Source: a virus
DNA: 11,287 nucleotides
Virus genome (UHGV): UHGV-0262291
Strand: one strand, 5' to 3'
Shown: positions 8,811 through 9,485 of the stretch, in pieces
How positions within the stretch are numbered: the stretch's first letter is position 1
Layout of the letters: each line of letters begins with the position of its first letter
The notes under the pieces: model-generated
Database searches by the model: none
What the model saw: only the letters and a program-made list of their open reading frames with translations
Told to the model about the DNA's origin: nothing
Made by a program: the position numbers and the translations under genes

Positions 8811-9485
8811 ATGAAAAACACTATCAGCGAACGTATTCGGAATCGTCGAAAAGACGTTGGATTAACCCAACAGCAGGTTGCGAAAGCAATCGGCATATCT
8901 CGTGTATCCGTAACAAAATGGGAAAATGGCTCTTCAAAACCTGACGGTGAGAATTTGTATCTACTGTCAAAATTGCTTTCCAAATCTCCTGAATGGATTC
9001 TTTATGGAAAGGACGGTCACGATAAAGCCGATGATCTGCGTCTGAATCAGTACCCTTACATTAGTGACAACATCGCCCGGTTGCCCGTTTTAACGTGGGA
9101 ACAGGCTGGTTATTGGGATATGAGTTGTCCAGTAACCGAGATTCCTGGTATTAAGAATTGGGTTGATGTCATGACAAAAACCGCTGAAAACTCTTTTTTA
9201 TTGCATGTTGAGGGAGATGCGATGACAAACTCTAACGGCCTCCCAACCATCCCCGACGGATCTACCGTGCTGATCACACCATGCTCAAGTAACATTAGAG
9301 AACTGGTGGGAAAAATAATCTTAATCCAATTGGAAGGAACGCCAAACGTAACACTAAAAAAAGTTGCGATTGACGGACCAAACATCTATCTGTTGTCACT
9401 GAATCCGCTTTACAAACCCATCGAACTGAATGGTGGTTACACCATTAAAGGTAAAGTTTCACAAATACATCAATACTTAGACTGA
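8811..9485 (+). CDS. CI-like phage repressor (N-terminal HTH plus C-terminal LexA/S24-like domain with Ser-to-Ala at the nucleophile position)
   Basis: HTH LTQQQVAKAIGISRVSVTKWENG. The C-terminus aligns with lambda CI: EGDAM vs EGNSM, then PDG, LKK (catalytic Lys conserved) and LNPLY vs LNPQY. The ORF track starts at a TTG at 8712; in-frame ATGs at 8769 and 8811 are possible starts and neither has an SD. 8811 is chosen because it leaves a normal-length N-terminus before the HTH. Confidence 0.7.
   Translation: MKNTISERIRNRRKDVGLTQQQVAKAIGISRVSVTKWENGSSKPDGENLYLLSKLLSKSPEWILYGKDGHDKADDLRLNQYPYISDNIARLPVLTWEQAGYWDMSCPVTEIPGIKNWVDVMTKTAENSFLLHVEGDAMTNSNGLPTIPDGSTVLITPCSSNIRELVGKIILIQLEGTPNVTLKKVAIDGPNIYLLSLNPLYKPIELNGGYTIKGKVSQIHQYLD

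What the first reader, a model, noticed from the sequence alone, without database searches (positions are those of the whole stretch)
8811..9485. CI-like repressor has alanine where the autocleavage serine should be (EGDAM)
The C-terminal domain aligns motif by motif with the lambda CI / LexA S24 domain: EG-x-SM, PDG, the catalytic Lys in LKK, and LNP-x-Y. The nucleophile Ser is an Ala codon (GCG at 9219..9221), while the partner Lys and an Ala-Gly pair (EQAGYW) are kept. If real, the repressor would keep its dimerisation fold but could not undergo RecA-stimulated self-cleavage, so the prophage would be SOS-uninducible or rely on an antirepressor.
Basis: partly seen in the sequence, partly recalled or inferred. 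Interest (0 to 1): 0.6.

Follow-up and report, generated by a model that had tools for sequence, protein, structure and literature searches.

The report
Prophage repressor missing its self-cleavage serine
A lambda-CI-type prophage repressor carried by about one in eight complete E. coli genomes has alanine where the self-cleaving serine should be, so DNA damage probably cannot switch this prophage on by the classic route, although very close relatives still keep the serine.

Summary
ORF 8811..9485 (+) encodes a 224-aa HTH_3 + Peptidase_S24 protein. It aligns with lambda CI so that Ala137 (GCG, 9219..9221) falls on nucleophile Ser149, Lys183 on Lys192, and Ala99-Gly100 on the Ala111-Gly112 cleavage site. 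It is the immunity repressor of a lambdoid (Rac/Qin-like) prophage: a divergent cro-like gene and three perfect GTAAC-N4-GTTAC operators flank it.

The alanine is not an error or decay. 686 of 702 complete E. coli genomes carrying this gene family have Ala, as do 80 of 80 IMG/VR loci. Between two Ala alleles the C-terminal domain has dN/dS of 0.05.

Serine survives in close relatives with the same operators: an O55:H7 allele (95.8% nt identity, TCG) and an 84%-identical allele that is the repressor of an Stx2a prophage. A Salmonella relative also has Ala. The codon has therefore changed or been transferred at least three times.

Most likely this is a natural Ind- repressor that binds DNA and oligomerises but cannot self-cleave. 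No antirepressor was found. Loss of cleavage and of SOS induction is inferred, not measured. I rate it a new variant of a known kind, of moderate interest.

The parts
8811..9485 (+). CI-type immunity repressor gene (224 aa; HTH_3 N-terminal domain, flexible linker, S24-fold C-terminal domain). RefSeq models start it at 8769 (238 aa).
   Evidence: Pfam. phmmer against lambda CI and P22 C2. AlphaFold model plus Foldseek. The first 14 codons of the 8769 model have dN/dS of about 1 and contain a conserved operator, which favours 8811 as the start.
9219..9221 (+). GCG = Ala137 in the column of the S24 nucleophile (lambda CI Ser149, LexA Ser119).
   Evidence: Sister alleles carry TCG or TCA (Ser) at the same codon.
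9105..9110 (+). GCT GGT = Ala99-Gly100, aligned to the lambda CI Ala111-Gly112 scissile bond. It is retained.
   Evidence: Nearly invariant in alignment A1.
9357..9359 (+). AAA = Lys183, aligned to the general base Lys192 of lambda CI. It is retained.
   Evidence: Invariant in A1.
8749..8762 (.). Operator palindrome GTAACAATAGTTAC (OR1-like). It lies between a TTGACA -35 (8775..8770, - strand) and a TACTCT -10 (8751..8746) of the putative PR that drives the cro-like gene.
   Evidence: three perfect sites against 0.2 expected, matched in 0 of 200 shuffles. Position and sequence are conserved in the c2, c3, c4 and P6 loci. The promoter hexamers were read from the sequence and are inferred.
8797..8810 (.). 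Operator palindrome GTAACATTGGTTAC abutting the ATG at 8811 (OR3/PRM-like position).
9560..9573 (.). Operator palindrome GTAACTCTTGTTAC (OL-like). It lies between a TTGACT -35 (9548..9553) and a TACCTT -10 (9571..9576) of the putative PL that drives the downstream ydfA/ydfC/dicB-type genes.
   Evidence: The same layout occurs in the c2, c4 and P6 loci.
9489..9513 (+). Intrinsic terminator of the repressor gene (a 10-bp stem and a 5-nt loop, with the 3' arm running into a T6 tract).
   Evidence: -15.1 kcal/mol, z = -4.2, with 0 of 200 shuffles folding as well.
8504..8719 (-). Divergent cro-like gene (YdaS/P22_Cro type).
   Evidence: PHROG 409, transcriptional regulator. RefSeq 'Cro/CI family'.
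8082..8507 (-). CII-like / YdaT-family gene downstream of cro.
   Evidence: PHROG 163, CII-like activator. RefSeq 'toxin YdaT family'.

Best explanation
The gene encodes the immunity (CI-type) repressor of a lambdoid prophage with a Rac/Qin-like early region.

Its N-terminal HTH domain binds the GTAAC-N4-GTTAC operators that sit inside the two divergent early promoters. One operator is between cI and cro, and one is just past the cI terminator. A third operator abuts the repressor's own start codon. Its C-terminal S24-fold domain provides dimerisation and cooperativity.

The nucleophile Ser is replaced by Ala, so the protein is a natural 'Ind-' repressor. Activated RecA may still dock, but the Ala99-Gly100 bond cannot be attacked in cis. 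DNA damage therefore does not inactivate the repressor directly.

The prophage then stays locked. It confers immunity and silences its toxic early genes (YdaS/YdaT, DicB and kil-type) unless something acts in trans.

Shown here:
- the domain architecture and fold
- Ala in the catalytic column
- the operators
- fixation of Ala in 686 of 702 carrier genomes
- strong purifying selection on the Ala-bearing domain
- Ser in very close relatives that share the same operators

Inferred:
- loss of self-cleavage
- DNA binding to those operators
- the selective advantage of non-inducibility
For: - Architecture and catalytic column. The fold matches lambda CI full-length (E 1e-10), the CI C-terminal domain (TM 0.78, rmsd 2.3 A) and the P22 C2 N-terminal domain (TM 0.94).
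- Immunity-region anatomy: a divergent cro-like and cII-like gene pair. Three perfect palindromes occur only at OR and OL. They are conserved in position across Ala and Ser alleles.
- Not an error. The exact Ala 61-mer is in 681 complete E. coli genomes, plus 2 one-mismatch variants (one checked, it is Ala) and 3 C8-type alleles (one checked, it is Ala). 80 of 80 IMG/VR loci have GCG.
- Still functional. Between the c1 and c4 alleles, both Ala, the C-terminal domain has dS 0.70, dN 0.037 and dN/dS 0.05. The N-terminal domain has dN/dS 0.09.
- The state is derived. All relatives at 42-52% identity have Ser, as do 89 of 105 more distant cluster representatives.
- The codon toggles. O55:H7 has TCG at 95.8% nt identity and c2 has TCA. 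A Salmonella clade (c3) has GCA and P0006 has TCG. The NJ tree has bootstraps of 0.9-1.0.
- Selective rationale. A lambda cI ind- prophage loses the fitness cost of lysogeny in the mouse gut (PMC4752277).
- Established knowledge. LexA S119A and lambda CI Ser149 substitutions abolish cleavage (Slilaty and Little 1987, cited from memory). The PDB entries 1jhc/1jhh 'LexA S119A' are such non-cleaving mutants.
Against: - No cleavage or induction experiment exists for this protein. I found no paper that mentions it.
- Some carrier prophages look structurally complete, with int, xis, Q, lysis, terminase, capsid and tail genes. The nearly identical gene sits at different attachment sites (yccA, ompW) and next to different replication and morphogenesis modules. 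This suggests the module still moves horizontally, by particles or by recombination.
- The Ala-Gly site and the Lys are retained. Most other non-Ser relatives have lost the site. That could mean cleavage still matters.
- The gene is absent from 50,697 phage records, but so is the Ser sister allele, so this is not informative.
- The 686:16 ratio is inflated by heavily sequenced clones such as ST131 and O111.
Confidence: 0.75

Rival explanations
1. The repressor cannot cut itself but is still inactivated after DNA damage or another signal. The agent would be a trans-acting antirepressor or small protein, encoded elsewhere in the prophage or by a co-resident prophage, as with Gifsy GfoA/GfhA, P22 Ant, 186 Tum or the TF-smORF modules.
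For: Non-autoproteolytic repressors controlled this way are common (PMC3121763; PMC10432266). Antirepressors can act across prophages. Carriers are polylysogens. Several carrier prophages look intact.
Against: No antirepressor is annotated anywhere in the complete O17_K12a prophage, nor in the roughly 20 kb on either side of the gene in E2855 and MNCRE44. Nine small ORFs around the repressor hit only PHROGs of unknown function. The only LexA-box-like site in the window and in the whole O17_K12a prophage lies in the first codons of a DNA methyltransferase, not in front of a small gene. The known antirepressor-controlled repressors GfoR, GtgR, DicA and RacR are about 150 aa and have no S24 domain.
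Confidence: 0.15
2. The Ala protein is a substrate only. It keeps the Ala-Gly bond, the Lys and the surrounding cleavage-site region because it is cleaved in trans by a Ser-bearing S24 partner, either a repressor allele with the same operators or another CI/LexA/UmuD-type protein in mixed oligomers. Induction would then be conditional on a second element.
For: Ala-Gly, Lys183 and the motif LPVLTWEQAG.W are conserved in all three Ala clades. Twelve of the 16 more distant full-length representatives that lack Ser at that column have lost Ala-Gly. Ser and Ala alleles share operator sequences and almost identical C-terminal domains, so heterodimers are plausible. Intermolecular cleavage of LexA and CI is known (Kim and Little 1993, cited from memory).
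Against: No genome was shown to carry both alleles; the median is 1 copy per carrier genome. Conservation of these residues is equally explained by a recent loss plus general purifying selection on the fold (dN/dS 0.05). Trans cleavage is slow in vitro.
Confidence: 0.06
3. The Ala codon is a sequencing error, or a neutral lesion in a decaying pseudogene of a dead prophage.
For: Some carrier prophages are clearly degraded. The E2855 copy has IS insertions and a frameshifted integrase.
Against: An identical GCG is found in 681 independent complete genomes and in 80 IMG/VR loci. The ORF is intact everywhere I examined it. dN/dS is 0.05-0.09 in both domains between Ala alleles with dS 0.5-0.7. The operators are conserved.
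Confidence: 0.01

Closest known systems
Lambda CI / P22 C2 / LexA (Peptidase S24 autoproteolytic repressors)
   Same: It has the same two-domain architecture and fold. The Lys general base, the Ala-Gly site and the PDG and LNP-x-Y motifs are all present. The genetic layout is the same: a divergent cro, palindromic operators at OR and OL, and a terminator after cI.
   Different: The nucleophile Ser is Ala, the equivalent of the laboratory mutants LexA S119A and CI S149A. Only three perfect operators were found, against lambda's six. The operator half-site GTAAC is unrelated to lambda's.
Lambda cI ind- (laboratory non-inducible alleles)
   Same: The predicted phenotype is the same: a stable repressor that RecA* cannot inactivate. 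An ind- prophage removes the cost of lysogeny in the gut (PMC4752277).
   Different: Here the allele is natural and is the majority form of this repressor in E. coli genomes. It coexists with Ser alleles that share the same operators.
Gifsy GfoR/GtgR, DicA and RacR short repressors with LexA-controlled antirepressors (Lemire et al. 2011, PMC3121763)
   Same: They are non-cleavable repressors of enterobacterial lambdoid prophages. The gene neighbourhood is the same (YdaS/YdaT, ydfA-C, dicB) as in Rac and Qin.
   Different: Those proteins are about 150 aa and lack the S24 domain altogether. They have an identified antirepressor module, and none was found here.
Non-autoproteolytic cI proteins of N15/VP882-like linear plasmid phages (Silpe et al. 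2023, PMC10432266)
   Same: That study predicted many phage cI proteins (210 of 271) to be non-autoproteolytic because the catalytic residues are absent.
   Different: They belong to a different phage group. Induction there runs through TF-smORF or antirepressor modules. The paper does not describe a Ser/Ala polymorphism among near-identical alleles.
CI clades of Stx phages (Fagerlund et al. 2022, PMC8951638)
   Same: The Ser sister allele (c2) is the repressor of an Stx2a prophage. That paper reports the cleavage Ser as conserved in CI clades I-VII.
   Different: The window allele is the Ser-less counterpart, found on the stx-negative prophages I examined.

Membership tests
Peptidase S24 (LexA/CI/UmuD) fold family | C-terminal beta-rich S24 domain recognisable by profile and by structure | tested here: met
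   Pfam PF00717 at E 9.5e-17, 61 bits against a cutoff of 23.3. The model matches the lambda CI C-terminal domain 1kca/1f39 at TM 0.78 and rmsd 2.3 A, and also LexA C-terminal domains.
Peptidase S24 (LexA/CI/UmuD) active autopeptidases | Ser nucleophile (lambda Ser149, LexA Ser119) | tested here: not met
   Ala137 (GCG, 9219..9221) occupies the column in phmmer and MAFFT alignments. No compensating Ser is present.
Peptidase S24 (LexA/CI/UmuD) active autopeptidases | Lys general base (lambda Lys192, LexA Lys156) | tested here: met
   Lys183 is aligned and invariant in A1.
Peptidase S24 (LexA/CI/UmuD) active autopeptidases | Ala-Gly (or Cys-Gly) scissile bond in the linker / cleavage-site region | tested here: met
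   Ala99-Gly100 aligns to lambda Ala111-Gly112.
Peptidase S24 (LexA/CI/UmuD) active autopeptidases | RecA*-stimulated or alkaline self-cleavage | not testable with these tools
   This needs purified protein. It is predicted to be absent by analogy with LexA S119A and CI S149A.
Lambdoid CI immunity repressor | N-terminal HTH DNA-binding domain of the Cro/C1 type | tested here: met
   HTH_3 at E 3.5e-17. P22 C2 N-terminal domain at E 1.4e-12, with TM 0.94 and rmsd 0.7 A.
Lambdoid CI immunity repressor | Divergently transcribed cro-like gene with repeated palindromic operators in the intergenic region and at a second (OL) site | tested here: met
   cro-like gene at 8504..8719 (-). GTAAC-N4-GTTAC sites at 8749, 8797 and 9560, matched in 0 of 200 shuffles. 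They are conserved in homologous loci. Binding itself was not tested.
Antirepressor-controlled short repressors (GfoR/GtgR/DicA/RacR type) | Single-domain repressor of about 150 aa without a peptidase domain | tested here: not met
   The protein is 224 aa with a full S24 domain, in contrast to the description in PMC3121763.
Antirepressor-controlled short repressors (GfoR/GtgR/DicA/RacR type) | LexA-controlled antirepressor gene elsewhere in the prophage | tested here: inconclusive
   A LexA-box scan of the window and of a complete carrier prophage found one site (16/20 matches to the consensus), inside the start of a DNA methyltransferase gene. It found no annotated antirepressor. Small ORFs of unknown function remain.

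The most novel reading that the evidence does not exclude
The Ser/Ala state of the nucleophile codon is an evolvable on/off switch for SOS inducibility. It would be flipped repeatedly, in both directions, by a single T<->G transversion or by gene conversion within a group of repressors that share the same operators. The Ala form would keep its scissile bond, its Lys and presumably its RecA-docking surface because it can revert. Alternatively it keeps them because it is cleaved in trans by a Ser-bearing partner. Either way, a 'locked' prophage would be only conditionally locked in polylysogens.
Probability: 0.12. Interest if true: 0.75.

Novelty: new variant of a known kind. Interest (0 to 1): 0.45.

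Why it matters
Prophage induction by DNA damage drives phage spread, Shiga-toxin release and the fitness cost of lysogeny.

Here a one-base change appears to have disabled that trigger in the commonest allele of a repressor found in about 13% of complete E. coli genomes, including ST131 and O111 EHEC. The Ser allele persists on an Stx2a phage.

If the prediction holds, this is a clean natural experiment on selection for or against inducibility. It is a simple genotypic marker (GCG versus TCG/TCA) for which of these prophages can respond to SOS-inducing antibiotics. It also cautions against the database label 'LexA family protein / S24 peptidase' for a protein that is not a peptidase.

Tried and rejected
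- Strict LexA-box search (CTGT-N8-ACAG, up to 1 mismatch) in the window gave only chance-level hits. A looser CTG-N10-CAG scan of the window and three carrier loci gave one decent site in a methyltransferase. The sulA box served as the positive control.
- The consensus promoter scan of 8450..9750 found nothing and missed the obvious terminator. I read promoters by eye, and the terminator was confirmed by folding.
- My first attempt to count Ser alleles used a Ser-edited 61-mer. It was uninformative because identity bands cannot tell which base mismatches. I redid it with exact Ala and O55:H7 61-mers.
- Absence from the phage collection looked like support for non-inducibility. I rejected it as evidence because the Ser sister allele is absent too.
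- I looked for a gene-conversion tract around the codon, between c1 and c4 and between O55:H7 and c2. Sliding identity and O55-unique sites showed no clear patch.
- Literature searches for this protein accession, for natural Ser-less S24 repressors and for ST131 prophage induction returned nothing specific.
- The first bootstrap values were wrong because of a rooting artefact. I recomputed them on bipartitions.

Full report
**1. The observation**

The window carries an ORF with ATG at 8811 and TGA at 9483..9485 on the + strand. Its 224-aa product has an N-terminal HTH_3 domain (residues 9-63, E 3.5e-17). It also has a C-terminal Peptidase_S24 domain (residues 92-216, E 9.5e-17, 61 bits against a curated cutoff of 23.3).

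Against all PDB sequences the best hit is full-length lambda repressor 3bdn (E 4.4e-14). The printed alignment puts:
- query VEGDAMT on lambda VEGNSMT (Ser149)
- LKK on FKK (Lys192)
- QAG on QAG (Ala111-Gly112)
- IPDG on FPDG
- LNPLY on LNPQY

The codon at 9219..9221 is GCG. Two independent multiple alignments place the same residue in the nucleophile column. One includes lambda CI, E. coli LexA and 45 homologues. The other includes 105 more distant full-length cluster representatives.

An AlphaFold model built on a 29-sequence alignment has mean pLDDT 78.7. It matches:
- lambda CI (E 1e-10)
- the CI C-terminal domain (TM 0.78, rmsd 2.3 A)
- LexA C-terminal domains
- the P22 C2 DNA-binding domain for the N-terminal part (TM 0.94, rmsd 0.7 A)

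The nearby Thr139 and Ser141 are also present in the Ser-bearing sister alleles. They are therefore not compensatory replacements.

**2. What the locus is**

The gene sits in a classical immunity region, drawn here in reverse of the usual lambda map. A cro-like gene (8504..8719) is transcribed divergently. Behind it lie a CII-like/YdaT gene (8082..8507) and a replisome-organiser gene, then DUF977, DUF968, RusA and a Q-type antiterminator.

Downstream of the repressor there is a strong intrinsic terminator (9489..9513; -15.1 kcal/mol, z = -4.2). After it come ydfA/ydfC-type small genes, and in full prophages dicB, exo, xis and int.

The palindrome GTAAC-N4-GTTAC occurs exactly three times in the 11.3-kb window, with 0.2 expected and 0 of 200 shuffles reaching three. 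The sites are at 8749..8762, 8797..8810 and 9560..9573.

Reading the sequence, the first site lies between a perfect TTGACA -35 and a TACTCT -10 pointing at cro. The third lies between TTGACT and TACCTT pointing at the downstream early-left genes. The second abuts the ATG at 8811. The same sites in the same positions are found next to all close homologues.

RefSeq starts the protein 14 codons earlier, at 8769. Those codons evolve with dN/dS of about 1 and contain the second operator.

**3. Is the alanine real, and is the protein still in use?**

The gene is found in 702 of 5,426 complete E. coli genomes. An exact 61-mer centred on GCG is present in 681 of them. Two more differ by one base. I checked one of these and it is Ala. 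Three carry a 97%-identical 'C8-type' allele. I checked one and it is Ala. All 80 related IMG/VR loci have GCG.

Two diverged Ala alleles, c1 (the window) and c4 (89% aa identity), differ by dS 0.70 but only dN 0.037 in the C-terminal domain, giving dN/dS 0.05. The N-terminal domain gives dN/dS 0.09. The Ser-less domain is thus under strong purifying selection. It is neither a sequencing error nor a decaying pseudogene.

**4. Where the serine went**

All relatives at 42-52% identity have Ser (VRGESMTN). So do 89 of 105 more distant full-length representatives. Ala is therefore the derived state.

Within the close clade the state is patchy:

| Allele | Host or context | Relation to the window allele | Codon | Residue |
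|---|---|---|---|---|
| c1 | E. coli, E. albertii (the window allele) | - | GCG | Ala |
| c4 | E. coli | 89% aa identity | GCG | Ala |
| O55:H7 type | 8 genomes | 95.8% nt identity; two C-terminal-domain aa differences | TCG | Ser |
| c2 | 8 genomes; in O178:H19 it is the repressor of an Stx2a prophage | 84% nt identity | TCA | Ser |
| c3 | Salmonella clade | 70% aa identity | GCA | Ala |
| P0006 | - | 66% aa identity | TCG | Ser |

A neighbour-joining tree gives (((c1,c4) 0.905, c2) 1.0, c3) 0.96, then P0006. With the O55:H7 allele nested in c1, at least three changes or transfers at this single codon are required. I found no clear conversion tract, and the direction of the changes cannot be resolved.

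The Ala-Gly site, the Lys and the motif LPVLTWEQAG.W are kept in all Ala alleles. Of the 16 more distant full-length representatives without Ser at that column, 12 have also lost Ala-Gly.

Ala and Ser alleles share operator sequences and the recognition-helix sequence SRVSVTKWE. I infer from this that they belong to one immunity group.

**5. Mechanism**

Replacing the nucleophile Ser with Ala abolishes self-cleavage in LexA (S119A) and lambda CI. This is established biochemistry, and S119A LexA structures appear among the fold hits. The best-supported reading is therefore a natural Ind- repressor. It represses PR and PL through the three operators and oligomerises through its S24 fold, but it cannot be inactivated by RecA*-stimulated autoproteolysis.

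A plausible selective reason is that SOS induction is costly to the host. A lambda cI ind- prophage abolishes the 1-2% per-generation loss of lysogens in the mouse gut (PMC4752277). The Ala:Ser ratio of 686:16 in complete genomes fits better retention of locked prophages. However, many carriers are ST131 or O111, so clonal sampling inflates the ratio.

**6. What argues for caution**

Some carrier prophages look complete, namely those at ompW in O17_K12a and in ST131 MNCRE44. Others are decayed, such as E2855 at yccA with IS elements and a frameshifted integrase.

The same repressor gene, at 99% identity or more, sits at different attachment sites and next to different replication and morphogenesis modules. 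Only 4 genomes match 80% or more of the window. The module therefore still spreads, either in particles or by recombination between resident lambdoid prophages.

I looked for an antirepressor route and found no annotated antirepressor in a whole prophage. The neighbouring small ORFs hit only PHROGs of unknown function. The single LexA-box-like site, TACTGTAAAAATATCCAGTT at 503..484 on the - strand, matches 16 of 20 consensus positions. It lies in the first codons of a DNA methyltransferase rather than upstream of a small gene.

This does not exclude an unrecognised or trans-acting antirepressor, as described for Gifsy prophages (PMC3121763) and for TF-smORF modules (PMC10432266). It also does not exclude trans-cleavage by a Ser-bearing partner.

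No phage record in the 50,697-genome collection carries a repressor more than 60% identical. That absence also applies to the Ser sister allele, so it says nothing about inducibility.

**7. Comparison with what is known**

By fold, architecture and genetic context this is a member of the CI/LexA S24 family. It fails the defining catalytic-Ser test, so it should be filed as a non-peptidase homologue and not as a 'LexA family / S24 peptidase' as the databases label it.

It works like the laboratory cI ind- or S149A alleles. It differs from the known natural non-cleavable enterobacterial repressors (GfoR, GtgR, DicA, RacR), which are about 150 aa and lack the domain entirely.

A survey of Stx-phage CI proteins reported the cleavage Ser as conserved in clades I-VII (PMC8951638). 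Silpe et al. predicted many non-autoproteolytic cI proteins in another phage group from missing catalytic residues. Catalytically dead CI-like proteins are therefore not new in principle.

I found no description of this protein, nor of a Ser/Ala polymorphism among near-identical alleles that share operators. This is within the limits of an open-access text search.

**8. Verdict**

The phenotype remains an inference.

I rate it a new variant of a known kind and of moderate interest. A specialist would not be astonished by a non-inducible repressor. But the recurrent single-codon toggle, its prevalence in major E. coli lineages, and the contrast with an Stx2a-phage Ser allele make it a directly testable case of selection on prophage inducibility.

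Noticed in passing
window 484..503 (- strand reading 503..484): A LexA-box-like site, TACTGTAAAAATATCCAGTT, matches 16 of 20 consensus positions (the sulA control box scores 17 of 20). It lies in codons 3-9 of the DNA methyltransferase gene that starts at 511 on the - strand, just downstream of the Q / late-promoter region. It could mean SOS control of the phage methylase, or it could be chance.
   Followed up: partly
window 8769..8810: RefSeq models start the repressor at ATG 8769 (238 aa). These 14 codons have dN/dS of about 1 between alleles and contain the conserved operator at 8797..8810. The real start is probably ATG 8811, possibly on a leaderless or near-leaderless mRNA as for lambda cI.
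   Followed up: partly
L015 (E. coli O178:H19 2012C-4431, NZ_CP024289.1 1270508-1295222), repressor at 12001..12717: The Ser-bearing sister allele (c2, TCA) is the repressor of an Stx2a-converting prophage at the rspB/ynfA site, with stx2A/B at 928..2168 of the locus. The Ala-allele prophages I examined carry no stx.
   Followed up: partly
L014 (E. coli O55:H7 CB9615, NC_013941.1), repressor at 12001..12717: This allele is 95.8% nt-identical to the window gene but has Ser (TCG), one transversion from the window's GCG. In the C-terminal domain it differs from the window protein at only two residues.
   Followed up: yes
window 3782..3994 (-) and 4404..5273 (-): A Hok/Gef-type toxin ORF (hokD in RefSeq annotations of matching prophages) lies in the nin-like region. 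A 289-aa ORF there corresponds to DUF551 genes that are split or partial in other genomes.
   Followed up: no
L001 (E. coli E2855, NZ_AP018796.1) 1..27600: In this EHEC-type genome the carrier prophage at yccA is decayed, with three IS1203 copies, a split exonuclease and a frameshifted integrase. It still keeps an intact Ala repressor, and TccP2 is encoded at one end. This looks like a locked, domesticated effector-carrying prophage.
   Followed up: no
window 8450..9750: The consensus terminator scan did not report the clear hairpin-plus-T6 terminator at 9489..9513, which RNA folding supports strongly. This is a tool limitation worth remembering.
   Followed up: yes
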